32,000 bases of DNA from Minisyncoccota bacterium (GTDB taxonomy: Bacteria > Patescibacteriota > Minisyncoccia > Minisyncoccales > Minisyncoccaceae). The notes under the pieces were generated by a model. That model had not been told where the DNA came from, did not search any database, and was given only the letters and a program-made list of their open reading frames with translations. Where the stretch lies: the NCBI GenBank assembly GCA_041650175.1, contig JBAZLS010000003.1:39917-71916 (forward strand), in the 5' to 3' direction. This document shows, in pieces, positions 7,001 to 27,731 of this stretch. Each line of letters starts with the position of its first letter. The stretch's first letter is position 1. A program made the position numbers and the translations under genes.

Positions 7001-7054
7001 GAGATTAGATTGATAAATATATTAATTTAATCTGCTGAATTTATTGTTCGCAAT

Positions 7055-7086
7055 AAAAAGAGTCCGCTGTAGCGGACTCTTTTTTG
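7055..7086 (-). terminator. Rho-independent terminator downstream of the DksA/TraR-like gene
   Basis: Stem AGAGTCCGC / GCGGACTCT (7059-7067 / 7072-7080), flanked by an A-run and a T-run, so it could work in both directions. Confidence 0.7.
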
Positions 7087-7098
7087 ATCTCTTATTTA

Positions 7099-7455
7099 TT
7101 ATACTTTATGTTTAGTGCAAGTTTTTGCTTCAGGGATAGCTTTTAGCCTTTCTTCTTCTATTTCTATTCCGCAAACTTCGCATTTTCCATAGTTATTTTT
7201 TTCAATTTTTTCAAGAGCTGTATTCACATCTTTTAACGTTAATTCTAAAGCATGCTCGACTGGCAAGAGATTTTCATATTCTTCCACTTCATCTTCTTCG
7301 CATTCAATATCATCGCAATTCTCTCCAGCTGGAAATCTTGTATTCCAATCATTCCCTACTTTATTCTTTGTAGCAAATGACTCTAATTCTTTTTCTAGAT
7401 TAAGTTTATTTTGTTTTAATTTTTGTTTTAGCTCTTTTAATAATTCTGGATTCAT
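7099..7455 (-). CDS. DksA/TraR-family C4-type zinc-finger protein
   Basis: Coiled-coil N-terminus, acidic middle, C-terminal CEVCGIEIEEERLKAIPEAKTCTKH (CxxC-17-CxxH) zinc-finger signature. Confidence 0.75.
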   Translation of the reverse strand: MNPELLKELKQKLKQNKLNLEKELESFATKNKVGNDWNTRFPAGENCDDIECEEDEVEEYENLLPVEHALELTLKDVNTALEKIEKNNYGKCEVCGIEIEEERLKAIPEAKTCTKHKV

Positions 7456-7472
7456 ACGGTTTTCTTATTATT

Positions 7473-9242
7473 TTATTCTTTTTCTTGAGCGTCTTCTTCT
7501 ATCTCTTCTTTTGTATTTTCACTGTTTTTTACCCTATCAGAAATTTGAGAAATTTGAATTTTTATATTTTGTTCTTTTTTCTCGTTAATATCGGATATTT
7601 TGTCTCGGAAAGTTTTTATTTCTCCAGATATTAATTGATATCGTTCCTTAAGATTTTCTCTTTCTTTTTCAGCCTTAGAGAGAGAATCTTCTATTTTCCA
7701 TCTTTCTGTTTCTACGTCTCTTCGAGCCCTTTCAGCAGATTTTCGTTGTTGCTCAAGCGTTCTGACTTCATTTTCTGTTCCAGCAGCATCGGTTCTTTTT
7801 TCTAATATTCTAATTTCTTCTTCTGATAATTTTTCCCTGTTTCTAATCTCTAAAAGTTTTCTATCTAATTCATTTTTTAATTTTGTATTTTCAAACATCT
7901 TATCTTTAATCGCAAAAGCCTCGGTCTCAATTTTTTCAAGATCTGTTTGAATGGTTCTTTTTTGTTGTTCAAGTAAAATATCTTCCCTATCTCTGCGAAG
8001 TATTTCTAATTCTAAATTAAGCTCTCTTTCTTTAGAGACTATTTTTTCAAAATTATATGTGCATTCGTTTAATTGGGCTTTCAAAGATTTTATTTCATCT
8101 TCTTTTTCTTCTTGTTCAAGCACAACATCATTTCTTTGATCTTCAATTTTCCATCTCTCCTTTTCAAATGTTCTCTTTTCGTCAACGCTTTGAGAAGCAT
8201 TTTCTTGATCTTCAATCGTCTTTTTAACTTTTTCAATCCTTTCTTTTCTTTCAAGAATAAGATCAAGTTTTTTTTCAGCTCTTTCTATTTCTAATTCAAT
8301 TTCTTTTTTTCTTTGTTCAAAAGGAATTTTTTCTTCAAGGACATTGCTAATCGCTTCTTCTGTATCAAAAGTAGCATTAGTGATTCTTCTAAGTTTTTCT
8401 TCATCAGTTTCTTCTTTCTTTTTTTTCAATTCTATTAAACTTTTTTCAGCCTCTAACGCAAGTTTTATTTTTTCTCTTTCTCTTTCTTTCTCTGAAATTT
8501 TCTTGCCCTCGTTTTCTCTTTCTCTTGCTTTTTCTGCAAACGAATCAAGCTCAGCCTGTTTGGTAAGCTGTTCAACAGATGGCATTTCAGGAATAATTAT
8601 TTCTGATTTTTGTTTTATAGCTTTTTCTTTTACTTGCCTGTTTGCAACTGCATCTGCAATATTAGTAATTTCTAATGAGTCTTTAAGTTTTTCAGCTGAC
8701 TCTTTCTCTAATTTTTCTTTTTCTAATTTTTCTTTCTCCAGTTTCTCTTTCTCTAATTTTTCTTTTTCTAATTTTTCTTTCTCCAGTCTTTCTTTCTCTA
8801 GTTTCTCTTTTTCTAATTTTTCTTTCTCCAATCTTTCTTTCTTAGCTATTTCTGACAAAGTTTTCTCCAATCTTTCTTTCTCCAATCTTTCTTTCTCTAA
8901 TTTCTCTTTTTCTTTAGCTTGAGCAAATTTTTCGTGTGCTATTTTTGAGATTCTATCTTTTTCTTCACGGCTAAGTTCATCTTTTACAATAGGACTAGGC
9001 TTTTTAGGAACACTTGATGTAATTGCAATTGTATTGAATGTTGGAATTGCATTTCCTCTGTTTGTTGAATTAAAAGAATCACCCAAGTTCGTTTTTGGCT
9101 TTTGTATCTGGAATGGAGTTACTGTTAAAGGTTCAATTTTTTTCAAAAAATTTGGATTCTCCAATGATTTTTTTTCTGCTTGAGCCAAATCCTTTTTCAT
9201 TGTTCGGATTTGACTTTTTTCTATTCTAAGGTTTTCCTCCAT
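7473..9242 (-). CDS. Lys/Glu-rich coiled-coil protein of unknown function with a pentapeptide (KLEKE) repeat tract
   Basis: Uninterrupted 589-aa ORF with strongly biased K/E/L heptad-like composition. No recognisable catalytic motif. Confidence 0.7.
   Translation of the reverse strand: MEENLRIEKSQIRTMKKDLAQAEKKSLENPNFLKKIEPLTVTPFQIQKPKTNLGDSFNSTNRGNAIPTFNTIAITSSVPKKPSPIVKDELSREEKDRISKIAHEKFAQAKEKEKLEKERLEKERLEKTLSEIAKKERLEKEKLEKEKLEKERLEKEKLEKEKLEKEKLEKEKLEKEKLEKESAEKLKDSLEITNIADAVANRQVKEKAIKQKSEIIIPEMPSVEQLTKQAELDSFAEKARERENEGKKISEKEREREKIKLALEAEKSLIELKKKKEETDEEKLRRITNATFDTEEAISNVLEEKIPFEQRKKEIELEIERAEKKLDLILERKERIEKVKKTIEDQENASQSVDEKRTFEKERWKIEDQRNDVVLEQEEKEDEIKSLKAQLNECTYNFEKIVSKERELNLELEILRRDREDILLEQQKRTIQTDLEKIETEAFAIKDKMFENTKLKNELDRKLLEIRNREKLSEEEIRILEKRTDAAGTENEVRTLEQQRKSAERARRDVETERWKIEDSLSKAEKERENLKERYQLISGEIKTFRDKISDINEKKEQNIKIQISQISDRVKNSENTKEEIEEDAQEKE
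8690..8925 (-). repeat. 15-bp tandem repeat tract encoding (E/R)KLEKE units
   Basis: Plus strand reads ttctctaatttttct / ttctccagtttctct variants repeated about 14 times. The protein reads EKLEKERLEKEKLEKEKLEK. Confidence 0.85.
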
Positions 9243-9261
9243 AGAAGATAAGAGTATTTAA

Positions 9262-16616: not shown

Positions 16617-18407
16617 CTATTTAATTACCCATCCTACAATCAGGCTCTCAGGGCATGCATTAATACTAGTTACTGGGTCAGTGATAGTTACAAAAGGAAC
16701 TTCTGTTTTAGTTATGGTTTTCAGCTTTTTTCGAAGTTCTTGAGCATCTTCGGGATTATCTCCATGCGCAATAACAGCCCTCATTCTCCCTCCCCTTCTG
16801 ATCTCTCTATTAGAACTTTTTTCAATCTTTTTAAACAATATATCAACAAGATCAGATGATTTAATTTTTTCAATTGGTGTCATTTTTCCATCTCGCATTT
16901 CGACTAATGAATAGTAAGTATCCTTCTGTTTAAACCAAAAACTTTTTGATTCTTTTTTCCACCAATTAGTATTTTCCAAAATTCCATACACATTAATCTT
17001 TGGAACAAAATCAGTTAATCTTTTTACGATTTCGTCCATATTGCGCAACTCCTTAATCAGTTCCAATGCCTTTAGGACCACTAATGATTGTCCAGCGCTG
17101 ATATTTTTTGAATCAATCACAAACACTTTTTCACGATCGCTGAATGGCAGCATTTCCTTTGCCTTTAGAGCCGAATCATAATTACTGGAAAGTTTTGAAC
17201 TAGAAACAATACATAAAACCTTCTCGAATTTTTCAAGCTGGTTTTTGTAAGCCTCAAAGAAAAACTCTGAAGAAATAGAATTTATTTTTGGTTTATTTGT
17301 TATGCCCTGTTTTTTTGCTTCTTTTATTTTTTCGCAAATACTATTTCCTATGAGCGTCTCCCCTTCTGGCCAATCAATTCTGAATGGGATAATTTCTATA
17401 TTGTAATGTTGGATTATTTTTTGTCCAAGACCCGCCCTTTCATCAATTACTATTCCGATAGAAACTTTTTCAATAGATTTTTCTCCAACAACCTCTTTTG
17501 CCATATCCTGTATCTTCAAACTCTCAATATCCCCCATTTCCTTTATTATATCCCGTATTTCGTATGGACTATCTGTATGAATATGTATTTTTGTTTTATC
17601 CCCTATTTGGATTACATCAAGACAATTACCCAAATGGTGCAATCTAGCTCGTATTTTTTCCATTTTATAATCAGTATTAGTCAAAAGAGAAACGACTTCA
17701 AAACGGTTTGATATTATTTGTATAAACCTTTTTGTGGCCATCTCTTCATCTTCATTCTCGCCAGTAGCAAGGACTAATTCTTCAAAATCTTCATCAGAAA
17801 AAAGTTTTAACATATCAAAATACGCCTCAATAATCATTAAAAATCCTAATCCTCCAGCATCAACAACACCAGCAGTTCTAAGTATTTCCATATGGTTCGG
17901 GGTTTCCAATAAGGCGATATTTGCTCTCTTAAGCGCGATGCTAAAGACTTTTATAATATTATTTTCATCTTTATTTTCTCGAAAAGCATAAGCAAAAGCT
18001 CGCATTACATCAAGAATTGTTCCTTCTTTCGGGTTTTGGACAGAATCGACGGCACGAGTGTAAGCGCTTTCAAAAGCAATTGCTAATTTTTTTGTATTTA
18101 ATTTTTCTTCTCTTGGTAGTTCCCCAAAAAAACCCGCAAGCCAGCCAGTATAAATAATACCAGTATTTCCTTGCGCAGCTATAAGAGCTCCATCCATAGC
18201 ACTATCCCCTAGCTCTCCAATATTATTAAATTCCTTTTCTTCAATTGCATCTTTTACGCCTAGTAGCGTTGCAGCTAAATTACTTCCAGTATCTTGATCT
18301 GGAACAGGAAAAACATTAATTTTATTCACTTGTTCCTTATCTTTATCCACTCTCTCGCAGGACGAGATAATCATTTTTTGTAATTCAATTTGAGATATTT
18401 CTTCCAT
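16617..18407 (-). CDS. fakA: DAK2/DhaL-domain + DegV-domain fusion protein (FakA / YloV-like fatty acid kinase subunit)
   Basis: The N-terminal DhaL motif VFPVPDQDTGSNLAATL and GNTGII, then a C-terminal DegV-like half (SSSKLSSNYDSALKA, AHGDNPEDA). First gene of a co-directional fakA-fakB-fakB-plsY block. Confidence 0.8.
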   Translation of the reverse strand: MEEISQIELQKMIISSCERVDKDKEQVNKINVFPVPDQDTGSNLAATLLGVKDAIEEKEFNNIGELGDSAMDGALIAAQGNTGIIYTGWLAGFFGELPREEKLNTKKLAIAFESAYTRAVDSVQNPKEGTILDVMRAFAYAFRENKDENNIIKVFSIALKRANIALLETPNHMEILRTAGVVDAGGLGFLMIIEAYFDMLKLFSDEDFEELVLATGENEDEEMATKRFIQIISNRFEVVSLLTNTDYKMEKIRARLHHLGNCLDVIQIGDKTKIHIHTDSPYEIRDIIKEMGDIESLKIQDMAKEVVGEKSIEKVSIGIVIDERAGLGQKIIQHYNIEIIPFRIDWPEGETLIGNSICEKIKEAKKQGITNKPKINSISSEFFFEAYKNQLEKFEKVLCIVSSSKLSSNYDSALKAKEMLPFSDREKVFVIDSKNISAGQSLVVLKALELIKELRNMDEIVKRLTDFVPKINVYGILENTNWWKKESKSFWFKQKDTYYSLVEMRDGKMTPIEKIKSSDLVDILFKKIEKSSNREIRRGGRMRAVIAHGDNPEDAQELRKKLKTITKTEVPFVTITDPVTSINACPESLIVGWVIK

Positions 18408-18435
18408 ATAATTTAAAGAATTGCAGATATTTGGA

Positions 18436-19086
18436 TTATTTTACTTTTTCTTCTAAATCTTTTAGCATTTTTGCTGCTATATCTTTGCCGCCTAGGCCAA
18501 AAGATAATCCAAGGATCAGTACTAGCAAAGTGACAAATCCAATAAAAATAGTCAAAATCAAAGTTTGGACAATTTGTAATTGATAGAGAATAGCCAAGAT
18601 ACAAATTATCCAAGTACTTGTAGCAACAACATTCCCTACTATTCCCGAATAACTCATTTTTCTTTTTTCCATTTTAACCAAAACAATCTTTTTTGAAAAA
18701 TCTGCAAGAAATACTGCAAGTATGAAAATTAAAATCGAAATAAAAATATTTGGAAAATAGTTGATTACTTCTTGTAATATAATATTTATCTGGTCTAGTT
18801 TTATAATTTCAAATGATATGCTTAAAAATACTATTACAAAGAAAAATTCAATAATAGACCCGACAAATCCAGACATATCAAGCTTTGTGTCATATCTATC
18901 AAAAAATTCTTCCCATCCTAATGTTTTTAACATCTGGTTCAGTCTGATTTTATCAAGAACATTTTTAATAGCCTTTTTTATTTTTTTTGCTATAAACCAG
19001 CCAACAAAAAAAACAATAATACCCCAAAGCAATGGTGGTAACCCGCCAGAAAAACTTGTTATAAAAGCATCAATTAATTCTTTCAT
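18436..19086 (-). CDS. Polytopic membrane protein with conserved TM-helix repeats (as in mechanosensitive-channel N-terminal regions)
   Basis: LPPLLWGIIVFFVGWFIAKKIKK and a C-terminal LGLSFGLGGKDIAAKML pattern. Recalled from memory as resembling the 'conserved TM helix' family, not verified. Confidence 0.5.
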   Translation of the reverse strand: MKELIDAFITSFSGGLPPLLWGIIVFFVGWFIAKKIKKAIKNVLDKIRLNQMLKTLGWEEFFDRYDTKLDMSGFVGSIIEFFFVIVFLSISFEIIKLDQINIILQEVINYFPNIFISILIFILAVFLADFSKKIVLVKMEKRKMSYSGIVGNVVATSTWIICILAILYQLQIVQTLILTIFIGFVTLLVLILGLSFGLGGKDIAAKMLKDLEEKVK

Positions 19087-19215
19087 AATGTTTGTTTAGT
19101 TATTTTAAATTATTTCATTAAAAAATTACAAAGCAATCTACCTTTTTCGCCTCTTTTCTTATAAGTGCGTTAAAGTTTACGTTTAAAATTTTATAAAGCC
19201 TTTATTTACCTTATA

Positions 19216-19782
19216 TTACCATTTTGCTTTATGCAAGCCTAAATCATAACCGATCCTATTGAATATTATATGAATAAAAAATGTTAAAGGAATTAAAATT
19301 ATCCAAAAAAGACTCTCAAAGTGATAAAAAGGCTGAAGCACGATAAAACATCCTATACAATAATTTATTTGGTCAAATGGTATGAATGGCTGTCCAGGTT
19401 TTATTTTAAATCTCCGTTTTATAAAAGCGAACAACAAATCTCCGAAAACTGTACCAATAGATAGTAAAAAACCTGCAATTAACGCATTTGTAGCATTAGC
19501 ATTAAACCCGATTAATTGGTATAAATTTAATCCTAAAAATTCGTGAATAAAGAAAAATATTTGAAAATATCCAGTCCCAACGATAATTTCAGATAATAAT
19601 CCCCTCCATGTTTTATGGTTGCCTAATAACGGAGATCCAAAAAACCTATAATTAAAATCAATGGGGCCTGCTAATTTTGTGAAAAATTTTGAGTTTCTAG
19701 CAACTAATGGTGGAGCAGCATTTGCGCAATATGCTGGTATAAAAAAGTATATGCAAGCGAGTATATATAATAAGAAATCCAT
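19216..19782 (-). CDS. CarS-family (CDP-archaeol synthase-like, DUF46) integral membrane cytidylyltransferase homolog
   Basis: IPAYCANAAPPL, PIDFN...LLGNHKTWRG, GDLLFAFIKRRFKIKPGQPFIPFDQ motifs match the CarS family pattern rather than the CdsA PGHGG pattern. Confidence 0.7.
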   Translation of the reverse strand: MDFLLYILACIYFFIPAYCANAAPPLVARNSKFFTKLAGPIDFNYRFFGSPLLGNHKTWRGLLSEIIVGTGYFQIFFFIHEFLGLNLYQLIGFNANATNALIAGFLLSIGTVFGDLLFAFIKRRFKIKPGQPFIPFDQINYCIGCFIVLQPFYHFESLFWIILIPLTFFIHIIFNRIGYDLGLHKAKW

Positions 19783-19788
19783 GAAAGG

Positions 19789-20388
19789 TTAGAATTTTAT
19801 AATTTTTGGCTCAGTTTTTTTAATAAGTCTTTTAATATTTTCACGATGGGCCCACCATATTATTGGAATAAATAATACGCCAAGGATAGTAAAAGGAATT
19901 GATTGAGTACTATACCAAATTGCAACGGGAACAATAAAAATAATTATCAAATTAGTTAAGCTCATTATTTTCAAAGCATACAGTAGTAATACCCAAATAA
20001 ACAAGAATTGCAAGGCATTTTTAAATCCAATAAGACAAATCAATACAGCAAATACTGCCGAAACAGCTTTTCCTCCTTTAAAATTAAGCCAAAAGCTATA
20101 CATATTCCCAATGATCGCTGACAAAGAAATAACTGCAATTTCCCATTCAGGAAGAGAAAAATAAAAAGCTAAAATAACTGGTATGGCAACCTTCAAGACA
20201 TCAAGAATTACGACCAATAAAAAATAAGAAAATCCAAGGCTTCGAAGAATATTAGTTCCTCCGACATTGCCACTTCCCTGTTTTCGGATATCAATTTTTT
20301 TTGATTTTGCAATCAAATATCCAACAGGAGTTGAAGCGCAGATATATGCAAATAATATTAATAAAATAAAAATGAAATTTTGATTCAT
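19789..20388 (-). CDS. plsY: Glycerol-3-phosphate acyltransferase PlsY
   Basis: IRKQGSGNVGGTNILR, LDVLKV, FWLNFKGGKAVS, HRENIKRLIKKTEPKI motifs; 199 aa. Confidence 0.9.
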   Translation of the reverse strand: MNQNFIFILLILFAYICASTPVGYLIAKSKKIDIRKQGSGNVGGTNILRSLGFSYFLLVVILDVLKVAIPVILAFYFSLPEWEIAVISLSAIIGNMYSFWLNFKGGKAVSAVFAVLICLIGFKNALQFLFIWVLLLYALKIMSLTNLIIIFIVPVAIWYSTQSIPFTILGVLFIPIIWWAHRENIKRLIKKTEPKIIKF

Positions 20389-20421
20389 ATTAAAGTTATT
20401 ATAACAGAAAAAAGCATATTA

Positions 20422-20832
20422 TTAAAATTTTTTATCCTCAAAAACATTTTCAAAATGGAAAATTTCTAATTTATTTTCTCTATCATTAATAATAATGCCG
20501 ATAACATCTAATTGCCATTTTAAATTTTCTATACTTATGTTTTTAGCAGCAAACCATTTATTGGCAGTTAAGATGATTTTTGCAACTTTCTTCTTATTAA
20601 CTCTTCGTTCTAAGCAAAAATAATCCCCTATCCATGAACTTTTTATTGTTGTTTTTACTTCAATAAATACATAGGTATTTTTTAGTTTAGCAATTATGTC
20701 AATTTCTCCTATTTTTCTGTCAGTTTTGGTTTTAAAGAAAAAATTAGTATCTAAAATATCATAACCCTTGTTTTTAAGAAATTGATTAGCTAAGTATTCT
20801 CCCCTATCACCAGTACTTGAATTATTGTTCAT
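20422..20832 (-). CDS. yraN: YraN family (UPF0102) endonuclease-like protein
   Basis: GDRGEYLANQFLKNKGYDIL...GEIDIIAK....VFIEVKT restriction-endonuclease-like core. Confidence 0.85.
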   Translation of the reverse strand: MNNNSSTGDRGEYLANQFLKNKGYDILDTNFFFKTKTDRKIGEIDIIAKLKNTYVFIEVKTTIKSSWIGDYFCLERRVNKKKVAKIILTANKWFAAKNISIENLKWQLDVIGIIINDRENKLEIFHFENVFEDKKF

Positions 20833-20836
20833 ATTT

Positions 20837-20864
20837 ATAAAAAACTAGAAGTTTTAACTTCTAG
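20837..20864 (-). terminator. Hairpin + U-run closing the tRNA-Pro/module unit, 5 nt upstream of the yraN start
   Basis: Stem CTAGAAGT / ACTTCTAG (20845-20852 / 20857-20864). The plus-strand A6 at 20839-20844 gives U6 on the minus-strand transcript. Confidence 0.55.
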
Positions 20865-20904
20865 CTCTTCTGGCTTTTAAATTTTACGATCAAGCGTTCG
20901 ATTT

Positions 20905-21057
20905 TTACCCCGATGTTGGGAGTCCATTATCTAATTCCTACTGGAATTATCTAAAGCCTGGCTGCGGCACCAGTCGTGCCTTGCCTTCGACTCCCCCACA
21001 ATACTTCCCTACATTATCCCACTATAACGTTGGAATTTTAGCTTAGTTTAGTTTCTG
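20905..21057 (-). other. tRNA-Pro-linked structured module (diverged copy of the tRNA 3' end, conserved core, inverted T-arm copy)
   Basis: CCCGATGTTGGGAGTCC (20908-20925) resembles the tRNA-Pro 3' end CGGGATGCTGGGAGTCG. Hairpin at 20933-20948 (loop TACT), AAGCCTG at 20954-20960, hairpin GGCAC-CAGTC-GTGCC at 20966-20980, CCTTCGACTCCCCCA at 20984-20998 (inverted T-arm). Confidence 0.6.
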
Positions 21058-21128
21058 TCGGGATGCTGGGAGTCGAACCCAGATTACGGACTCCCGAAGC
21101 CCGCATAATGCCTTTATATGACATCCCG
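21058..21128 (-). tRNA. tRNA-Pro (anticodon CGG)
   Basis: 71 nt. Acceptor CGGGATG/CATCCCG, anticodon stem CGGGC/GTCCG with loop UUCGGGA, T-arm CTGGG-TTCGACT-CCCAG. The D-stem is A/T-only and weak. CCA not encoded. Confidence 0.8.
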
Positions 21129-21205
21129 TAAGCGGGATAATTCTTAGAGTAATTAATTTTAGTATCTAAATCCGGCAATTAGCCGGATTATAGACTGAAG
21201 ACGAG

Positions 21206-21230
21206 GAACATTAAGCCCGAATGTTTTTTA
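21206..21230 (+). terminator. Orphan terminator-like hairpin + T-run with no upstream plus-strand gene
   Basis: Stem AACATT / AATGTT (21207-21212 / 21220-21225), loop AAGCCCG, then TTTT. Preceded by hairpin AATCCGGC-AATTA-GCCGGATT (21169-21189). Confidence 0.35.
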
Positions 21231-21319
21231 CACATTAATAATAGGATGATTTAATAAAAAAAGCAAGAGTTTTCATTTTATTAAATACGAAAAATAATAA
21301 AAAAAAGAATTAAAATTTT

Positions 21320-21425
21320 TTCTGGCCAAAACTCTCACCATTCTGGCCAAATTATCCCCAACTTTGTCCCCATTCTGGCCAAAACTCTCACCATTCTGGC
21401 CAAATTATCCCCAGTTTTATCCACA
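21320..21425 (+). repeat. 53-bp tandem duplication (2 units), each with two TTCTGGCCAAA boxes and a DnaA-box-like 9-mer
   Basis: ttctggccaaaactctcaccattctggccaaattatcccca occurs at 21320 and again at 21373. The unit tails differ (actttgtccccat versus gttttatccacat). Confidence 0.85.
21417..21425 (+). promoter_or_regulatory. Exact DnaA-box consensus TTATCCACA, with TTATCCCCA variants at 21352-21360 and 21405-21413
   Basis: Direct match to the canonical 9-mer. The two neighbours differ at one position. Confidence 0.4.
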
Positions 21426-21627
21426 TTTTGGCCAGCAAAATACATTTTTTGTTGTAAATACAAGGAGGTTCTTTTTAGCCAAAAGTCATTTTTATTTGGC
21501 CAAATCCACAAAAAACGTAAAAATAAAACCTATTTTAAATAAAAGGTTCTTTAATTTTTCTTTAATTTTGGCCAGAATAATTTTTTCTGGCCAAATAGTA
21601 TTTTATAATTAAACGATACTTAATCAG

Positions 21628-21698
21628 TGGACCTGACGAAAATCGAATTCGTGTTTCTGCTATGCGAAAGCAGTGTATTTCCACTATACTACAGGCCC
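21628..21698 (-). tRNA. tRNA-Ala (anticodon CGC)
   Basis: 71 nt. Acceptor GGGCCTG/CAGGTCC with the G3:U70 alanine identity pair, anticodon stem CTGCT/AGCAG with loop UUCGCAU, T-arm ACGAA-TTCGATT-TTCGT. Confidence 0.9.
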
Positions 21699-21786
21699 GC
21701 AGTATTTTTTATAAGTTTATTATAAATAAATTTTTTTAAAAAAACAATAAAATTAAAAACAATAATAGTTTTTTATTTATTTAATT

Positions 21787-21867
21787 TGGCCAGAAAGAAA
21801 TTATTCTGGCCAAAGTTATTTTTGGCCAGAATCGGTTCTGGCCAAAATATGTTAAAAATCTTGGCCA
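21787..21867. repeat. Second array of TGGCCA-core motifs (5 copies)
   Basis: TGGCCA at 21787, 21807, 21823, 21839 and 21862, in alternating orientation. Confidence 0.85.
21822..21846. repeat. 25-bp palindromic element TTGGCCAGAA-TCGG-TTCTGGCCAA(A), copy 1
   Basis: Perfect 10-bp inverted arms with a 4-bp spacer; identical 25-mer at 22817-22841. Confidence 0.85.
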
Positions 21868-22099
21868 GAACTGGAAAATAAACAAATATTTTTGTCAAAT
21901 TAGCTTTAAAAGATTTTTTAAAACAATATTCACACTTTTTAACGTATTTATGCGGAAAGTGAACCCTCAAAACAAGGTATTTCTAAAAAAAAGAAAAAAT
22001 ATCCTATAAAATATCTGACAAAGTAATAAAACTGAAAAAATGTAAAAAATTAGAATATCAAAAATTTGCGAAATTTTTTAAAAGAAGGCTTTTTTAAAA

Positions 22100-22115
22100 C
22101 GTTTCACGTGAAACG
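22100..22115. promoter_or_regulatory. parS-like site CGTTTCACGTGAAACG (perfect 16-bp palindrome)
   Basis: 14/16 match to the ParB-binding consensus TGTTNCACGTGAAACA; only the outermost positions differ. Confidence 0.75.
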
Positions 22116-22282
22116 ATTATTTTTTAGATAAAAATAATTAGAATAATTAAATCATAATTTAAAAAATTTAACGTATTTATGGGAAAAGTAACCTCTTAAA
22201 ACACTTAAATTCAACTATATGGCATTTTTTCGTAATTTAATCTTTTAGAATTCCTAGAACATTTTTATGGCCAAATAGAAGC

Positions 22283-22298
22283 CGTTTCACGTGAAACA
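22283..22298. promoter_or_regulatory. parS-like site CGTTTCACGTGAAACA
   Basis: 15/16 match to the parS consensus. Confidence 0.8.
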
Positions 22299-22424
22299 AA
22301 CGATATTTCAATCCATTTTCCGAAATTTTTTAAAAGGTTTTTAGCGTTAAAACAATCCGGCCAAAATCAACGTTTTTTCTGGCCAGAATAATCTAGAAGA
22401 ATTTGCTATTTTGGCCAGATTCTG

Positions 22425-22440
22425 TCCGCCACGTGAAACA
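22425..22440. promoter_or_regulatory. Degenerate parS half-site TCCGCCACGTGAAACA
   Basis: The right half plus the central CACGTG are intact; the left arm has diverged. Confidence 0.4.
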
Positions 22441-22509
22441 GATTTTTAAATTCTAAAAAATTAGAATTAAAAAATTTAATAAAACTAAAAAATATAATTT
22501 AATTAATAG

Positions 22510-22525
22510 TGTTTCACGTGAAACT
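22510..22525. promoter_or_regulatory. parS-like site TGTTTCACGTGAAACT
   Basis: 15/16 match to the parS consensus. Confidence 0.8.
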
Positions 22526-22718
22526 AAGGCATTTTATTAAAAAACCAATTAAATATAACTTGTCTATTAATATTTAATTTATCCTTTATTTATAAGAAAA
22601 AAAGAACATAATTATTACTTCGAAAAAAGAAAATCCTAAAAATATAGCTAATTCGTAAATTTTTAAATTTTTCTTAAAAATTAAAATAAATTTTTAAAAT
22701 TTAATAAAGTTTTAATGA

Positions 22719-22734
22719 TTTTTCACGTGAAACA
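22719..22734. promoter_or_regulatory. parS-like site TTTTTCACGTGAAACA
   Basis: 15/16 match to the parS consensus. Confidence 0.7.
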
Positions 22735-22807
22735 TTTTTAAAAAACGAAAAAAACATCAAAAACAGCTCTTTTTTCGTAGTTGACGAGAGGTCATTCGTG
22801 TTGATTT

Positions 22808-22861
22808 TGGCCGGTATTGGCCAGAATCGGTTCTGGCCAAATCTGGCCAGAATGTTGGCCA
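22808..22861. repeat. Right array of TGGCCA-core motifs (4 exact + 1 TGGCCG variant), includes palindrome copy 2 (22817-22841)
   Basis: ttttggccggtattggccagaatcggttctggccaaatctggccagaatgttggccagaatgc. Confidence 0.85.
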
Positions 22862-23023
22862 GAATGCTAAAAAATAAATAGCAAAAGTGTCAATTATTTG
22901 TATTTTTTTTAAAAATTTTAAAACAAAAAATAAGATTTAATTTCAAATTAAAAAAGAAACTATCTCAAATTTATTAACAATAACAAAAAACACGGATAAT
23001 CCGTGCTTTGTTATTATATTATT

Positions 23024-24535
23024 TTATTGAATCCAATATTTCTTTTTAGTTTTTTTATCTTCTTCCGATTTTATCTCACCAACCTCTTTTTTTGCTTGGA
23101 GTGATAGGTCCTTAATCTCTTTGTCAGATAAGTCTACTAAATCTTCTAACTGTTCAAGTAATACTTTACGAGAATTATTCTTTGGGTTTTTGAGAACGCT
23201 TTCCAATAATATCTCCAATAACCAGCCAATCTTGGGCGATGGTTTAATTTTAAATAAATTCATTATATCAGAGCCATTTATTTGGAGCATTTTGACCGAA
23301 ATAGGGTCTTTCGACACTTTTTCAATCATATACTTTAAATGTCTTAATTTGTAAGGTTCAGCCTTTGGACAGCCAGAGCCAATACGATCCGCCATTCTTA
23401 ATTTTAATAAATCTTCAACGTTTTCAATACCAATATTCTTAATTAATCGCCTAATTGATGCCTCCTTGACTTCATCAATATTGTAATAAAATAGGTGATA
23501 TCTAACCAATAAAGTTATCTTTTCAATATCTTTTTTAGGAAAATGTAACCTTGTAAGAATAATTTTCACCATCTTTGCGCCAACTATTTCATGATTATAA
23601 AAAGTTGCATTTTCTCCTTCTCCATTTTTTGTAGCAGGTTTGCCGATATCGTGCAGTAGGGAAGCCATACGAATAGAAAAATTGAAATTTTTCTTCGTAG
23701 AATAAGTTAAAGCTTCTAAATTATGCTGATAACAATCAAAAATATGATGTTTATTTTGAGCAATTTCATATCCTTGTTCTAGTTCGGGAATAACGTATTT
23801 TAATAATCCATTTTTCCTTAAGGATTCGATTCCGCTAGCTGCTTTATCACTATTTATGGTTTTTATAAGCTCATCTCTTAGCCTTTCTTGAGATATTTTT
23901 TTAAGCAAAACTGCATTCCTTTTAATAGCAGATTTAGTTTTTTCTTCAATTATCCATCCTTCTCCAAGACAGGCTTCAAATCGTATCGCTCGTATCATTC
24001 TAAGGGCATCTTCGGAAAATCTTTCCTCAGGATTACCCACAGATCGGATTATCTTTTCCTTCAAATCTTCTTGACCATTATAAGGATCAATTATGAGATT
24101 TTGCTTATTGCTAGTAGGGAATAATGCAATAGCATTAACAGTAAAGTCCCTTCTTTTTAGGTCATCTTCGATTGTTTTAGACCATTCAACTTTATCGGGA
24201 TGACGATTATTAGAATAGGAAGATTCTGATCTAAATGTTGTTATTTCAATAATTTCATATTCTTCTTGGTCAAATGTTTCACGTGAAATAGGGAAGGCAA
24301 TTCCAACAGTTCCAAAGTCATTTTCATAAAAAGTTTTAATATTTTTTTTGCCAAAAATACTCTGAATTTGCTCAGGAGTAGCATCTGTTGCTATGTCCCA
24401 ATCAGATGGAACTATACCTCTTAAATAATCCCTAACAGAACCTCCGACTATATATGCCTTAAAACCAGTCTCGGTAAGAGTATTAAGGCAAAAGAAGACG
24501 TTATTAGGTATTTTTATTATTCCTTTTGAGTGCAT
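23024..24535 (-). CDS. cca: CCA-adding enzyme / poly(A) polymerase-family tRNA nucleotidyltransferase with an HD domain
   Basis: GFKAYIVGGSVRDYLRG..PSDWDIAT nucleotidyltransferase head, RDFTVNA, LLHDIGKP HD motif. Consistent with three of the four tRNAs lacking an encoded CCA. Confidence 0.85.
   Translation of the reverse strand: MHSKGIIKIPNNVFFCLNTLTETGFKAYIVGGSVRDYLRGIVPSDWDIATDATPEQIQSIFGKKNIKTFYENDFGTVGIAFPISRETFDQEEYEIIEITTFRSESSYSNNRHPDKVEWSKTIEDDLKRRDFTVNAIALFPTSNKQNLIIDPYNGQEDLKEKIIRSVGNPEERFSEDALRMIRAIRFEACLGEGWIIEEKTKSAIKRNAVLLKKISQERLRDELIKTINSDKAASGIESLRKNGLLKYVIPELEQGYEIAQNKHHIFDCYQHNLEALTYSTKKNFNFSIRMASLLHDIGKPATKNGEGENATFYNHEIVGAKMVKIILTRLHFPKKDIEKITLLVRYHLFYYNIDEVKEASIRRLIKNIGIENVEDLLKLRMADRIGSGCPKAEPYKLRHLKYMIEKVSKDPISVKMLQINGSDIMNLFKIKPSPKIGWLLEILLESVLKNPKNNSRKVLLEQLEDLVDLSDKEIKDLSLQAKKEVGEIKSEEDKKTKKKYWIQ
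24275..24290. promoter_or_regulatory. parS-like site TGTTTCACGTGAAATA inside the cca coding sequence
   Basis: 15/16 match to the parS consensus. Intragenic parS sites are common in other bacteria. Confidence 0.6.
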
Positions 24536-24887: not shown

Positions 24888-27731
24888 ATGAGAACTAATT
24901 TTTTTAGAAAAATTTGTTTTGTTCTTTTAGGATTTTTTTGTTTTAGTTTTTCTATTGTTTTTGCTGCTGGACAATGTTCCTCTGGTGAAAATGGATCATA
25001 TCTTGATAATGCGCCTCATGACTTTTGTTCCAGCGGAACAACTTCATCTTTTACAGAACATAACGATGGTAATGTTAATATATACTGGACATGGAAATGC
25101 GGTACGGTTGATTGTACAGCTTATAAAAGAAAGACGGCTACAGCATCAAACCCAGTAATATGCGCTCCAAATCTTCCTGGATGGTGTCTTAATTATATTA
25201 GTGGAGATTCTTTTAACTCTGCAGTTTGGGGTTCTAGTCATTCATTATCCGGAAAAGCTCTTTCTTGGACTTGTAATTATTCAGGACAAACGGTTAATTG
25301 TGCTGCCGATATTGGTAATTGTGGTTCAATTACTTCAACACCCATTACTAGTTCTCCAGATGAAAGCAATGGATGTCAAGTTGGATATACTTTTGGAGGT
25401 TTGAATCAATTAACTTATTCATCAACTCACGAAAATGTTCCTATTGGTTATGGAGCATATGGATCGGATTGGTTATATAGAACTCCTTATACAGTATGGA
25501 CGTGGACTTGTGGTTCCTCACGTTGTTTTGGTTATATTTCTTCTGTTGTTAATGGCGCCTGCGGAACATCCAACGGAGCTAATTCCAGTACTGTTCCTAC
25601 AACCAATCTCTGTAATGAAGGAACAGCCTCTGCAGTCTCGGGAACTGGTCCATGGACTTGGACTTGCAATGGAATCGGCGGAGGAACTAATGCATCTTGT
25701 TCTGCTAATAAAATAACTGATGGCACTTGCGGAACAGCAAATCTAAAAACTTATTTATATGACGCAACCAGCTATGGAACAGATACTCAATGCGCAAATG
25801 GAACGTCAACTAATACCGCTTTCCCAGTAGTCGGAGGATCAGCAACTTGGTATTGTAATGGAAGCAATGGGGGAGCTAATAGTTCACTTTGTACTGCCAG
25901 TCGAAATGCCACTCCAGTTGCTGGTGCTTGCGGAACAGCCAATAACAAGACATATGCTTACAATGCAACAAGTTATGGATCAGATACTCAATGTTCAAGC
26001 GGAACTTCAAGCAACACTGCTTTTCCAGCTCAAGGGTCAATAGTTATTTGGACTTGTAGTGGATCAAATGGAGGCGAAACAAGAAGCTGTGCTGCTGGAC
26101 GTAATCCCGCTCCTATTAATGGTACTTGCGGAACAGCAAATCTAAAAACTTATCCTTACAATGCAACCAGCTACGGAACAGATACTCAATGTGAAGCAGG
26201 AACGTCAACTAATACCGCTTTCCCAGTAGTCGGAGGAATAACTAGTTGGTATTGCAATGGAAGCAATGGGGGAGCTAATAGTTCGCTTTGTGCCGCTAGT
26301 CGAGTCAATACTCCTATTAATGGCATTTGCGGAACAGCAAATCAAAAAGATTATCCCTATAATGCAACAAATTATGGATTAGATACTCAATGCGCAAGTG
26401 GAACTTCAACCGACACTTCTTTCCCAGCAGTCGGAGGAATACTTATCTGGTTTTGCAATGGAATTAATGGTGGAATAAATAGTAGTTCTTGTGCGGCAAG
26501 TCATAACCCTTACGTAAATGAAAACTGTGGTTTATCTAGCGAAGGTAATTTTAATGAAAAACCTATAGCCGATTTATGTAGTAATGGAGCAACAGCTTCA
26601 ACAGTTTCAGGAACTGGTCCATGGACTTGGACTTGCACTGATAATGAAGGAGAAATCTCAAATTGCTCTGCTGACAAGATTGTTAATGGTATTTGTGGAA
26701 CAGCAAATTTAAAACCCTATCCTTATAACGCAACTGGCTATGGAATAGACACTCAATGTGCATCAGGAACGTCAACTAACACTGCTTTCCCAGCAGTTGG
26801 AGGGTTAGCTACTTGGACTTGCAGCGGAAACAATGGAGGAACTAATAGTTTACCCTGTACTGCTAGTCGAGATAATACTCCAATTAATGGTATTTGTGGA
26901 ACAGCAAATTTAAAACCCTATCCTTATAACGCAACTGACTATGGAATAGACACTCAATGTGCATCAGGAACGTCAACTAACACTGCTTTCCCAGCAGTTG
27001 GAACAGCAGTTGGCTGGTATTGTAATGGAAGTAATGGAGGAACTAACAGTTTACTTTGTGCGGCAAGTCATATTGATAATGGCACTTGTGGCTCATCCAA
27101 TGGAAGCAATTTTAATGAAGCCCCTACAATCGGTTTATGTAACAGCGGATCACCTAGTACTGTTACTGGAGATGGTCCATGGACTTGGACCTGTAGTGGC
27201 GTTTATGGAGGAACAACTTCATATTGTAGTGCAAACAAGATAACTAATGGCGTTTGCGGAACAGCTGATGGTAGGGAGTATAGTTACCCTACAACATCTT
27301 ATGGTTTAGACACTCAATGTGCAAGTGGAACGTCAACTAACACCGCTTTTCCAGCACCTGGCTCGTCACAGGCTTGGATATGCAATGGGACTTATGGAGG
27401 AACAGCAAGTTCTTGCACTGCTAGTCACACTGCCGGATCTACTGCTAATGAAATTACTTCCTTCAAATTTAGAACTCCAGATGTTGTTGGGACTATTAAT
27501 GGAAATGATATTACTGTGACTGTTCCTTATGGAACTGCGGTTAATTCTTTAATTGCCATTTTTACTACTACCGGAAAAACAGTTCAAGTTGGAACCATTA
27601 CTCAGTATAGTAACGAAACTGTAAATGACTTTACTAATAAAGTATATTATCTTGTTTATCCAGAAGTTGGATCAATTCGAGTCTATACAGTTACAGTTAA
27701 AAAATCAATAAATCCTACTTGGAGAGAGTAA
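24888..27731 (+). CDS. Secreted or cell-surface Cys-rich repeat protein (947 aa) with a C-terminal beta-sandwich-like domain
   Basis: Signal peptide MRTNFFRKICFVLLGFFCFSFSIVFA. Seven ~66-aa modules (CGTANxKxYxYNATxYGxDTQCxxGTSTNTAFPxxG...WxCxGxNGGxNSxxCxAS) are interleaved with at least three ~55-aa modules (CGxSNGxxFxxxPxxxLCxxGxxSxVxGxGPWTWTC..GGxxxxCSANK). Strong terminator downstream. Confidence 0.8.
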   Translation: MRTNFFRKICFVLLGFFCFSFSIVFAAGQCSSGENGSYLDNAPHDFCSSGTTSSFTEHNDGNVNIYWTWKCGTVDCTAYKRKTATASNPVICAPNLPGWCLNYISGDSFNSAVWGSSHSLSGKALSWTCNYSGQTVNCAADIGNCGSITSTPITSSPDESNGCQVGYTFGGLNQLTYSSTHENVPIGYGAYGSDWLYRTPYTVWTWTCGSSRCFGYISSVVNGACGTSNGANSSTVPTTNLCNEGTASAVSGTGPWTWTCNGIGGGTNASCSANKITDGTCGTANLKTYLYDATSYGTDTQCANGTSTNTAFPVVGGSATWYCNGSNGGANSSLCTASRNATPVAGACGTANNKTYAYNATSYGSDTQCSSGTSSNTAFPAQGSIVIWTCSGSNGGETRSCAAGRNPAPINGTCGTANLKTYPYNATSYGTDTQCEAGTSTNTAFPVVGGITSWYCNGSNGGANSSLCAASRVNTPINGICGTANQKDYPYNATNYGLDTQCASGTSTDTSFPAVGGILIWFCNGINGGINSSSCAASHNPYVNENCGLSSEGNFNEKPIADLCSNGATASTVSGTGPWTWTCTDNEGEISNCSADKIVNGICGTANLKPYPYNATGYGIDTQCASGTSTNTAFPAVGGLATWTCSGNNGGTNSLPCTASRDNTPINGICGTANLKPYPYNATDYGIDTQCASGTSTNTAFPAVGTAVGWYCNGSNGGTNSLLCAASHIDNGTCGSSNGSNFNEAPTIGLCNSGSPSTVTGDGPWTWTCSGVYGGTTSYCSANKITNGVCGTADGREYSYPTTSYGLDTQCASGTSTNTAFPAPGSSQAWICNGTYGGTASSCTASHTAGSTANEITSFKFRTPDVVGTINGNDITVTVPYGTAVNSLIAIFTTTGKTVQVGTITQYSNETVNDFTNKVYYLVYPEVGSIRVYTVTVKKSINPTWRE
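25550..27440 (+). repeat. Intragenic array of ~165- and ~201-bp coding repeats
   Basis: For example, 26684-26801 versus 26885-27002 match at 117/118 positions (offset 201 bp). 25720-25835 versus 26121-26236 are highly similar (offset ~402 bp). Confidence 0.9.

What the first reader, a model, noticed from the sequence alone, without database searches (positions are those of the whole stretch)
20833..23023. 2.1-kb ORF-free, repeat-dense island around tRNA-Pro/tRNA-Ala: candidate replication origin / centromere region
Spacers between adjacent protein-coding genes elsewhere in this window are mostly 7-130 bp. The interval 20833-23023 has no credible CDS; the only ORFs there (21364-21612, 21773-21970) are translations of repeats. 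Packed into it are two tRNAs, five parS-type palindromes and 20 TGGCCA-core motifs in arrays and palindromes. It also holds one exact DnaA box (TTATCCACA, 21417-21425), two one-off variants, and long tracts almost devoid of G/C (about 22441-22509 and 22560-22718) that could act as unwinding elements. Every CDS and tRNA from 5489 to 24535 is on the minus strand, apart from the tiny ORF at 12739. Everything from 24888 onward is on the plus strand, which is the polarity expected on either side of an origin. No dnaA, dnaN or parAB lies in the window, so this call is inferential. The combination of canonical parS with a second, far more abundant motif does not match any origin architecture I know.
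Basis: partly seen in the sequence, partly recalled or inferred. Interest (0 to 1): 0.8.

Follow-up and report, generated by a model that had tools for sequence, protein, structure and literature searches.

The report
parS centromere with DnaA-box-like repeat arrays
This gene-free 2.2-kb stretch of a tiny uncultured bacterium's chromosome (Paceibacterota) is most likely its segregation centromere, packed with about 20 repeats that resemble replication-initiator binding sites. It is a real and conserved control region, but it has not been shown to be the replication origin.

Summary
Window 20833-23023 has no credible gene. It carries tRNA-Pro and tRNA-Ala, four near-perfect parS palindromes plus a half-site hybrid, 20 of the window's 25 TGGCCA sites, and three DnaA boxes within 74 bp.

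Relatives change the reading of the TGGCCA motif.
- The same slot, between the CCA-enzyme gene and YraN/PlsY, keeps 3-4 perfect parS sites in four other lineages. The parS cluster is therefore a conserved centromere.
- In three of those lineages the repeat reads TTGTCCAGAAT, which is not a palindrome. In the window it reads tTTGGCCAGAAt. It is an asymmetric, DnaA-box-like 11-mer, and it sits in fixed arrays with canonical DnaA boxes.
- These boxes are about 108 times denser in the islands than in about 220 kb of flanking DNA.

The origin call is not established.
- GC skew follows gene strand, and gene orientation flips repeatedly nearby.
- AT-rich tracts are common across the window.
- Two relatives have a 300-457 bp version of the island with no AT-rich tract.
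- No dnaA was found within about 35-40 kb on one side or about 10 kb on the other.

Best reading: a centromere with initiator-type binding arrays, as at Caulobacter parS. A true oriC remains possible (about 0.3).

The parts
22100..22115 (.). parS site 1, CGTTTCACGTGAAACG
   Evidence: 2 mismatches from TGTTTCACGTGAAACA; exact 12-bp core; aligned with a perfect parS in L008
22283..22298 (.). parS site 2, CGTTTCACGTGAAACA
22425..22440 (.). half-parS hybrid, GCCACGTGAAACA, directly next to a box at 22409-22420
   Evidence: The same hybrid, TGTTTCACGTG followed by GCGGACAGAA or CTGGACAAAT, is kept in L008 3661-3681 and L011 12053-12073
22510..22525 (.). parS site 3, TGTTTCACGTGAAACT
22719..22734 (.). 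parS site 4, TTTTTCACGTGAAACA
24275..24290 (.). additional parS-like site, TGTTTCACGTGAAATA, inside the CCA-enzyme gene
   Evidence: L008 has TGTTCCACGTGAAACA at the equivalent place (1693)
21317..21437 (.). Array A, a 53-bp unit repeated 2.2 times. It holds four TTCTGGCCAAA boxes interleaved with TTATCCCCA, TTGTCCCCA, TTATCCCCA and TTATCCACA, plus a fifth box, TTTTGGCCAGCA
   Evidence: The same composite order (box, then TGTGGAYAA, then GGGGATAA) is kept in L008 4679-4750 and L011 12706-12795
21494..21505 (.). single box variant, ATTTGGCCAAAT
21566..21596 (.). inverted pair of boxes, TTTTGGCCAGAA-N7-TTCTGGCCAAAT, between the two tRNA genes
   Evidence: conserved in L008 4519-4549
21784..21872 (.). 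Array B: five boxes in alternating orientation, upstream of tRNA-Ala
   Evidence: conserved block in L008 4230-4320
22265..22420 (.). four scattered boxes between parS 2 and the half-parS: TTATGGCCAAAT, ATCCGGCCAAAA, TTCTGGCCAGAA, TTTTGGCCAGAT
   Evidence: conserved in L008 3681-3745
22805..22866 (.). Array C: five to six boxes next to the terminator of the CCA-enzyme gene
   Evidence: conserved in L008 3221-3290
21057..21128 (-). tRNA-Pro (CGG)
   Evidence: present in every related island
21627..21698 (-). tRNA-Ala (CGC)
22430..22754 (.). near-continuous AT-rich spacer (85% AT or more), interrupted by parS 3 and parS 4.
   Evidence: Its sequence is poorly conserved against L008, and it is absent from L013 and L138
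21941..21974 (.). conserved 34-nt element of unknown role, AACGTATTTATGCGGAAAGTGAACCCTCAAAACA; a second, diverged copy lies at 22170-22203
   Evidence: family D5; two copies also in L008

Best explanation
The island is the chromosome's partition centromere, combined with a field of initiator-type binding sites. ParB would load on the cluster of parS palindromes: four full sites, one half-site hybrid, and one more site 1.5 kb away inside the CCA-enzyme gene. These are built around the tRNA-Ala and tRNA-Pro genes. Interleaved with them are about 20 copies of an asymmetric 11-mer, tTTGGCCAGAAt. This is the local spelling of TTGTCCAGAAT, the repeat found at the same place in relatives. It sits in fixed composite arrays with canonical DnaA boxes (TTATCCACA, TTATCCCCA, TGTGGACAA). 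I read the repeats as binding sites for the replication initiator, either DnaA itself or a protein acting with it. On this reading, initiator occupancy and centromere function are physically coupled near the origin, as described for the Caulobacter parS locus and the Vibrio chromosome-2 rctA/parS2 locus. Strand opening probably happens elsewhere. Shown: the sequences, their enrichment, their asymmetry, and their conservation and co-occurrence across lineages. Inferred: that ParB and DnaA bind, the coupling function, and that the island is not the unwinding site.
For: parS sites: five matches against 0.21 expected. Three or four perfect TGTTTCACGTGAAACA sites sit in the same CCA-enzyme to YraN/PlsY slot in L008, L011, L013 and L138. 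Neither parS nor boxes are present in L137, the 58% relative, so the two features appear and disappear together. The box is asymmetric. Relatives read TTGTCCAGA/TCTGGACAA. L138 mixes four TTGTCCAGAAT boxes with one TTCTGGCCAAAA box. In the window, 16 of 20 TGGCCA cores have CCAGA on one side only, 2 on both sides and 2 on neither; independent arms would give 10, 5 and 5 (chi-square 7.2, my arithmetic). Boxes are restricted to the island: 63 in 6.8 kb of islands against 19 in 223 kb of flanks, about 108-fold. Canonical DnaA boxes are embedded in the same arrays and kept in order across the window, L008 and L011. L013 and L138 have 5-8 boxes in one orientation at 9-12 bp spacing, as expected for cooperative binding of a DnaA-like protein. 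Boxes and parS are nearly invariant between the window and L008, while the spacers have diverged. Precedent: centromere loci that also bind the initiator are described in PMC6399470.
Against: No protein was tested. I could not retrieve DnaA or ParB of this lineage. The commonest box differs from TTATCCACA at positions 3, 4 and 8, and to my knowledge positions 4 and 8 matter for E. coli DnaA. In the window lineage all TTG-T-CCAGA boxes became TTG-G-CCAGA while the canonical boxes kept T at that position, which is easier to explain if two different proteins read the two classes. The expanded islands (window, L008, L011) do contain long AT tracts, a DnaA-box cluster and a nearby divergent gene pair, so they could be the real origin.
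Confidence: 0.5

Rival explanations
1. The island is the true chromosomal origin (oriC). DnaA would fill the box arrays and open one of the AT-rich spacers, and the parS sites are simply embedded in the origin.
For: Three DnaA boxes within 74 bp, plus about 20 related boxes. AT tracts up to about 330 bp long. At 2.2 kb it is by far the largest non-coding gap in the window, and its length is kept in L008 although the spacer sequence has drifted. Divergent gene orientation and a change in GC-skew sign lie 1.5 kb away, in all syntenic lineages. parS sites usually lie near origins (PMC7333895).
Against: The homologous module in L013 (457 bp) and L138 (300 bp) is filled by tRNAs, parS sites and boxes; its most AT-rich 60-bp window is only 68-72% AT, so there is no room for an unwinding element. 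GC skew is fully explained by gene strand. Orientation also flips at window 5.4 kb, at L135 3.2 kb and several times in L139. AT tracts of this kind are common elsewhere in the window. No dnaA or dnaN lies within about 35-40 kb on the KsgA side or about 10 kb on the other side. In Paceibacteria dnaA tends to lie near virB4 (PMC12102498), and virB4 is about 37 kb from the island in the L011 lineage.
Confidence: 0.3
2. The TTGKCCAGAAT repeats are bound not by DnaA but by a lineage-specific DNA-binding protein, such as a centromere accessory or nucleoid protein, or a regulator of the tRNA-Ala/Pro promoters. Only the few canonical boxes would bind DnaA.
For: The box differs from the DnaA consensus at three positions. 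In the window and L008 the T-to-G change is fixed in the class-II boxes (none reads TTGTCCAGA) but absent from the canonical boxes. Arrays lie directly upstream of both tRNA genes. Many boxes form inverted pairs, such as TTGGCCAGA-N6-TCTGGCCAA. Unrelated phage origins use TCTGGACA iterons for a lambda-O-like initiator, so such 8-mers are not specific to DnaA.
Against: No candidate protein gene travels with the island; YraN is absent next to the L013 and L138 islands. The other tRNA genes in the window (Lys, Arg) have no boxes. Boxes and canonical DnaA boxes abut each other in a conserved composite unit. The T and G variants coexist in one array in L138, so the reader protein tolerates both.
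Confidence: 0.3
3. The island is a relic of an integrated plasmid or phage, with iterons and a partition site, inserted next to tRNA genes.
For: tRNA genes are common integration targets. Iterons, DnaA boxes and a par site together are a typical plasmid origin layout. L257, an integrase-bearing viral contig, shows TGTCCAGA pairs next to three TTATCCACA boxes.
Against: No integrase, rep or par gene lies within 10 kb in any lineage, and the flanks are housekeeping genes in conserved order. The parS sequence is the chromosomal consensus. The module is vertically conserved across 62-79% protein identity. None of the viral-contig hits carries a parS cluster.
Confidence: 0.03

Closest known systems
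Chromosomal parS clusters of the ParABS system (for example Bacillus subtilis, Pseudomonas aeruginosa, Caulobacter; consensus TGTTNCACGTGAAACA)
   Same: The 16-bp palindrome is the same. Several copies are clustered at one conserved locus on a housekeeping chromosome.
   Different: Four to five sites are packed into about 650 bp of non-coding DNA, interleaved with tRNA genes and a second repeat family. No parAB genes are adjacent. Distance to the origin is unknown.
Caulobacter crescentus parS locus with DnaA boxes (Mera et al. 2014) and Vibrio cholerae chromosome-2 rctA/parS2 bound by RctB, as reviewed in PMC6399470
   Same: A centromere locus that also carries binding sites of the replication-initiator type.
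   Different: Here the putative initiator sites number about 20 and outnumber the parS sites. They have a divergent consensus, and binding is untested.
Bacterial oriC DnaA-box arrays (E. coli and B. subtilis type)
   Same: Canonical TTATCCACA-type boxes are present, along with closely spaced same-orientation arrays at 9-12 bp in L013 and L138, and AT-rich DNA nearby in three lineages.
   Different: The dominant box is TTG(T/G)CCAGAAT. No dnaA or dnaN is adjacent. The compact versions have no unwinding element. tRNA genes and parS sites lie inside the region.
DnaA-box clusters outside oriC (E. coli datA, B. subtilis DnaA-box clusters); recalled from my own knowledge
   Same: A cluster of initiator boxes without an obvious unwinding element, as in the compact L013 and L138 islands.
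   Different: Those clusters are not built into a parS centromere, and they use canonical boxes.
Iteron origins that also carry DnaA boxes (plasmids, Vibrio chromosome 2, lambdoid phages)
   Same: Short repeats in direct and inverted arrays lie beside DnaA boxes. L206 and L257 are examples found here.
   Different: No Rep- or O-type initiator gene lies next to the island. The island sits in a vertically inherited chromosomal context.

Membership tests
Chromosomal ParABS centromere (parS) | 16-bp palindrome matching TGTTNCACGTGAAACA | tested here: met
   Four sites at 1-2 mismatches plus one in the CCA-enzyme gene. Relatives carry perfect copies.
Chromosomal ParABS centromere (parS) | Sites conserved at an orthologous locus in related genomes | tested here: met
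   L008, L011, L013 and L138 each have 3-4 perfect sites in the same intergenic slot. L137 has none.
Chromosomal ParABS centromere (parS) | Location in the origin-proximal part of the chromosome | tested here: inconclusive
   dnaA was not reached. KsgA and type IV secretion genes, which accompany dnaA in Paceibacteria (PMC12102498), lie 17-37 kb away.
Chromosomal ParABS centromere (parS) | ParB encoded in the genome and binding these sites | not testable with these tools
   The source contig could not be retrieved. No parB gene is present in the loci fetched.
DnaA-dependent oriC | Cluster of DnaA boxes | tested here: met
   One exact box and two one-mismatch boxes within 74 bp. They are conserved in L008 and L011. 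The far more numerous TTGKCCAGAAT boxes are only DnaA-box-like.
DnaA-dependent oriC | AT-rich unwinding element next to the boxes | tested here: inconclusive
   AT tracts are present in the window, L008 and L011, but they are no richer than other intergenic DNA. They are absent from L013 and L138. DnaA-trios were not analysed.
DnaA-dependent oriC | Replication-related switch of GC skew at the locus | tested here: inconclusive
   The sign change at about 24.5 kb coincides with the change of gene strand. Coding-strand skew is similar for genes of both orientations. No complete genome was available.
DnaA-dependent oriC | Adjacency to dnaA/dnaN (usual but not obligatory) | tested here: not met
   No Bac_DnaA hit among the called genes of L005, L008, L011-L013, L137-L139. 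None among the proteins of the window and L135 that I scanned; the other window ORFs were read only as translations.
Iteron-type plasmid, phage or chromid origin | Initiator (Rep, O or RctB) gene next to or containing the iterons | tested here: not met
   The flanking genes are YraN, PlsY, the CCA enzyme and NusA.
Dispersed repetitive extragenic elements (REP-like) | Copies scattered in many intergenic regions | tested here: not met
   19 boxes in 223 kb outside the islands against 63 in 6.8 kb inside.

The most novel reading that the evidence does not exclude
Paceibacteria may use a composite replication-and-segregation locus in which the initiator recognises a re-specified box, TTGKCCAGAAT, instead of TTATCCACA. 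In one lineage every class-II box in the locus (about 20) switched T to G, so that each box now contains GGCC/TGGCCA. That switch would reflect either co-evolution with the initiator's DNA-binding domain or the recruitment of a GGCC-directed methylation or sequestration control, analogous to GATC/SeqA at E. coli oriC. In the lineages with expanded islands, this locus, and not the dnaA region, would be the origin.
Probability: 0.15. Interest if true: 0.75.

Novelty: new variant of a known kind. Interest (0 to 1): 0.5.

Why it matters
Almost nothing is known about how bacteria of the Candidate Phyla Radiation start replication and segregate their very small chromosomes. My full-text searches found no paper on DnaA boxes in Patescibacteria.

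This locus provides a conserved, compact module of 300 bp to 2.2 kb that joins the universal parS centromere to arrays of a divergent initiator-like box. It also contains a natural experiment, because one lineage rewrote every class-II box from TTGT to TTGG.

The module gives defined DNA substrates for testing ParB and DnaA from uncultured organisms. It could also serve as a marker for anchoring replication-rate estimates from metagenomes. If the boxes are DnaA sites, the known range of DnaA-box specificity widens. If they are not, an unknown centromere-associated protein remains to be found.

Tried and rejected
- **Source contig.** I tried to fetch the window's own contig by exact protein look-up. 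It is not on record, and only a 1.8-kb fragment came back.
- **Genome scan.** I scanned genome contigs with TCTGGCCAAA-N(2-30)-TCTGGCCAAA. The pattern was too loose for 596 Gb.
- **Walking towards dnaA.** On the KsgA side I reached a type IV secretion cluster (TrbL-like, TraC-like, VirB4), but no dnaA. One look-up (P0135) landed in a non-syntenic region and told me nothing.
- **GC skew.** I split GC skew into a coding part and a replication part. The replication part cannot be distinguished from zero with the genes available.
- **Rfam.** Nothing in the island except the two tRNAs.
- **Literature.** Searching papers for the box sequences returned only primers and unrelated matches.
- **Viral contigs.** Scans for triple boxes returned unrelated coding tandem repeats and phage iterons, none with a parS cluster.
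- **Readings rejected.**
  - A symmetric TGGCCA operator for a dimeric protein: relatives read TCTGGACAA, and the window sites are significantly one-sided.
  - A REP-like dispersed repeat: the boxes are confined to the island.
  - Hidden coding sequence: there are no conserved ORFs.
  - AT tracts as a diagnostic unwinding element: they are common elsewhere.
Full report
**Source and setting.** The window comes from a Candidatus Paceibacterota (Candidate Phyla Radiation) metagenome-assembled genome, on a 148,208-bp contig. Its genes are housekeeping genes: PNPase, NusA, trigger factor, ClpP, PlsY paralogues, FakA/DegV, YifB and RsmA/KsgA, plus type IV secretion pilin-like genes. The interval 20833-23023 lies between a YraN/UPF0102 gene (20422-20832, minus strand) and a CCA-adding/poly(A) polymerase-family gene (23024-24535, minus strand).

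**Checking the observation.**
- tRNA-Pro(cgg) lies at 21057-21128 and tRNA-Ala(cgc) at 21627-21698, both on the minus strand.
- TGGCCA occurs 25 times in 32 kb, 20 of them between 21323 and 22861. The expectation for the whole window is 4.9, and none of 100 shuffles reached 25.
- The 12-bp parS core TTTCACGTGAAA occurs four times in the island and once at 24277 inside the CCA-enzyme gene, against 0.21 expected. As 16-mers these are 1-2 mismatches from TGTTTCACGTGAAACA.
- The fifth 'palindrome', at 22425-22440, is a half-site fused to other sequence.
- TTATCCACA (21417) and two TTATCCCCA boxes (21352, 21405) lie within 74 bp, inside a 53-bp tandem repeat.
- ORFs in the interval are short, start with TTG or GTG, translate the repeats, and are not kept in the closest relative.
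- Rfam finds only the two tRNAs.

**Related loci.** The source contig could not be fetched. Homologues of the neighbouring CCA enzyme led to orthologous loci in five other lineages. Gene order is conserved: NusA-Tig-ClpP on one side, and CCA enzyme, then (YraN), PlsY, CarS, MscS-like and FakA/DegV on the other.

| Locus | CCA-enzyme identity to window | Gap after the CCA-enzyme gene | parS sites | Boxes |
|---|---|---|---|---|
| window | 100% | 2191 bp | 4 near-perfect + 1 half-site | about 20, TTGGCCAGA type |
| L008 | 79% | 2262 bp | 4 perfect | about 20, TTGGCCAGA type |
| L011 | 71% | 1603 bp | 4 perfect | 12, TTGTCCAGA type |
| L013 | 65% | 457 bp | 4 perfect | 6-8, TTGTCCAGA type |
| L138 | 62% | 300 bp | 3 perfect | 5, mixed |
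| L137 | 58% | tRNA-Pro/tRNA-Ala slot, with extra genes inserted | none | none |

Every lineage down to 62% identity has perfect TGTTTCACGTGAAACA sites in this gap, together with tRNA-Pro and, in all but L011, tRNA-Ala. L137 has the tRNAs but neither parS nor the repeats. The parS cluster is therefore a conserved, vertically inherited feature. By its identity to the universal chromosomal consensus, it is almost certainly the ParB-loading centromere.

**What the TGGCCA motif is.** Only the window and L008 have TGGCCA arrays.
- In L011 the equivalent arrays read TCTGGACAA(A), which is the reverse complement of TTGTCCAGA.
- L013 has eight boxes in one orientation at 9-12 bp spacing: TTGTCCAGAAT, ATGTCCAGAAT, TTGTCCCCA and ATGTCCACA.
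- L138 has four TTGTCCAGAAT boxes and one TTCTGGCCAAAA box.
- Oriented and stacked, the consensus is tTTG(G/T)CCAGAAt. CCAGA is invariant by the way the sites were selected, and the flanking TTG and AA(T) are nearly so.

The palindromic TGGCCA core is therefore an accident of a T-to-G change at one position. Inside the window the sites are also one-sided. Of the 20 cores, 16 have CCAGA on one side only, 2 on both sides and 2 on neither. Independent arms would give 10, 5 and 5 (chi-square 7.2; my arithmetic).

The repeat is locus-specific. There are 63 copies in 6.8 kb of islands and 19 in 223 kb of flanking sequence from the same organisms, about 108-fold denser. That flank includes 21 kb further along in the closest relative, which has essentially none.

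**Relation to DnaA boxes.** TTGTCCAGA differs from the TTGTCCACA form of the DnaA box at one position, and from TTATCCACA at two. The window form, TTGGCCAGA, differs from TTATCCACA at three.

More telling, canonical boxes are embedded among the repeats in a conserved composite order at the tRNA-Pro end of the island.
- Window (reverse strand): ...TGTGGATAA-AAC-TGGGGATAA-TTTGGCCAGAATGG...
- L008: TGTGGATAA-AAC-TGGGGATAA-TCTGGCCAGAA-TGTGGACAA
- L011: TCTGGTCAT-TA-TGTGGACAA-AATAGGGGATAA, twice

In the window-versus-L008 alignment, boxes, parS sites, tRNAs and a few other blocks are nearly invariant, while the AT-rich spacers have drifted. That is the signature of selection on the motifs.

I therefore read the repeats as binding sites for the initiator (DnaA) or for a partner protein. 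One caveat applies. In the window and L008 the T-to-G change is fixed in the class-II boxes (none reads TTGTCCAGA) but absent from the canonical boxes, which hints at two different reader proteins. Against that, L138 shows that both spellings coexist in one array.

1. *GC skew.* The sign change near 24.5 kb coincides with the change in gene strand. Coding-strand skew is about +0.13 to +0.20 for genes of either orientation in the window, L135 and L139. No replication component can be separated from it.
2. *Gene orientation.* It flips again at window 5.4 kb, at L135 3.2 kb and several times in L139. A divergent gene pair is therefore not special here. The switch also lies at 24535/24888, not in the island.
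3. *AT-rich tracts.* Tracts of 60 bp or more at 85% AT or higher occur throughout the window.
4. *Compact islands.* The homologous modules of L013 and L138 consist only of tRNAs, parS sites and boxes. Their most AT-rich 60-bp window is 68-72% AT, which leaves no room for an unwinding element. If the module has one function across lineages, that function is not strand opening.
5. *dnaA.* No dnaA or dnaN was found in the DNA I could reach. In the window's own lineage this runs from about -14.5 kb to +32 kb in window coordinates. In the L011 lineage it covers contig positions 19.5-41.1 kb and 50.8-72.9 kb.

A survey of Patescibacteria reports that dnaA, dnaN, rnpA, rpmH and ksgA lie within 20 genes of virB4 in Paceibacteria (PMC12102498). 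Here ksgA is 17 kb from the island and virB4 about 37 kb. By inference, dnaA probably lies some 40-60 kb away. That fits a centromere in the origin-proximal region, but it neither proves nor excludes an origin at the island, because origins need not adjoin dnaA.

**Best explanation and rivals.**
- *Best reading (about 0.5).* A parS centromere fused to a field of initiator-type boxes, coupling initiator occupancy to centromere function. The Caulobacter parS locus binds DnaA, and the Vibrio chromosome-2 rctA/parS2 locus binds RctB (PMC6399470). These are the nearest described precedents.
- *True oriC (about 0.3).* This is most plausible for the expanded islands.
- *A different reader protein (about 0.3, overlapping with the first two).* The abundant boxes would be read by a lineage-specific non-DnaA protein.
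- *Mobile-element relic (about 0.03).* This is very unlikely. There are no integrase, rep or par genes, the flanks are housekeeping genes in conserved order, and the module is vertically conserved. Viral-contig scans returned only unrelated repeats and phage iterons without parS.

**Novelty.** I found no description of origins, DnaA boxes or parS architecture in Patescibacteria in the searchable literature. The kind of element, a centromere with initiator sites, is known. The following are new variants:
- its density;
- its compact tRNA-embedded form;
- the divergent box;
- the wholesale rewriting of that box in one lineage.

**Limits.** Three things were out of reach:
- a complete genome;
- the DnaA and ParB proteins of the lineage;
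- read-depth data.

One collection scan was wasted on a pattern that was too loose.

Noticed in passing
window 20840-20998 (minus strand); L008 5046-5205: A candidate structured small RNA lies directly downstream of tRNA-Pro. It ends in an intrinsic terminator (hairpin 20845-20864 followed by five T). It is conserved in L008 with 4 compensatory base pairs, and its folding z-score is -2.1. It has no Rfam match and is absent from L011, L013 and L138.
   Followed up: partly
window 21129-21226 (hairpin at 21170-21188); L008 4850-4947; L011 12866-12940: A block upstream of tRNA-Pro is conserved across three lineages. It includes the hairpin ATCCGGCAATTAGCCGGAT and the sequence CATTCGGGCTTAATGTTCCT. 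It may be a promoter or leader, or another small RNA.
   Followed up: no
window 21941-21974 and 22170-22203; L008 3893-3930 and 4125-4160: A 34-nt element, AACGTATTTATGCGGAAAGTGAACCCTCAAAACA, is present twice in both the window and L008, among the parS sites. Its role is unknown.
   Followed up: no
window 22420-22440; L008 3661-3681; L011 12053-12073: A half-parS (TGTTTCACGTG) is fused to a box-like sequence (GCGGACAGAA or CTGGACAAAT). The fusion is conserved in three lineages and always lies next to a full box.
   Followed up: partly
window 24275-24290; L008 1693-1708: A parS-like site lies inside the 5' part of the CCA-enzyme coding sequence in the window and in L008, but not in the more distant relatives.
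   Followed up: partly
window 24888-27731: A 947-aa repeat-rich protein with an N-terminal hydrophobic segment has no Pfam match, and its GC content is 0.41-0.43 against 0.32 for the window. Several related assemblies break at this gene (contig ends at L002, L008 and L009).
   Followed up: no
window 2308-3354 and 12086-12538; L135 842-3166; L139 10001-19824: Type IV secretion pilin-like, TrbL-like, TraC-like and VirB4 genes are spread over about 40 kb on the KsgA side of the island. This matches the published association of this secretion system with the dnaA region in Paceibacteria.
   Followed up: partly
L257 5886-6124; L206 7379-7441 (IMG/VR viral contigs): Unrelated mobile elements use the same 8-mer as an origin iteron. 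In L206, TCTGGACA repeats lie inside a lambda-O-like initiator gene. In L257, inverted TGTCCAGA pairs are followed by three TTATCCACA boxes, next to an integrase gene.
   Followed up: partly
L013 (Ga0116247_10000002, 656,202 bp) and L134 (Ga0209099_1000001, 656,075 bp): Two contigs of almost the same length come from different samples and may represent the same organism; I inferred this only from their near-equal lengths. If so, they are probably complete ~656-kb genomes. They would be the best place to map the island (at about 236 kb on the first contig) relative to dnaA and to the global skew.
   Followed up: no
window, whole: GGCC is under-represented outside the island, with 20 observed against 41 expected. 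Twenty-three of the window's 43 GGCC sites lie inside the 2.2-kb island. GATC and CGCG are also depleted.
   Followed up: partly
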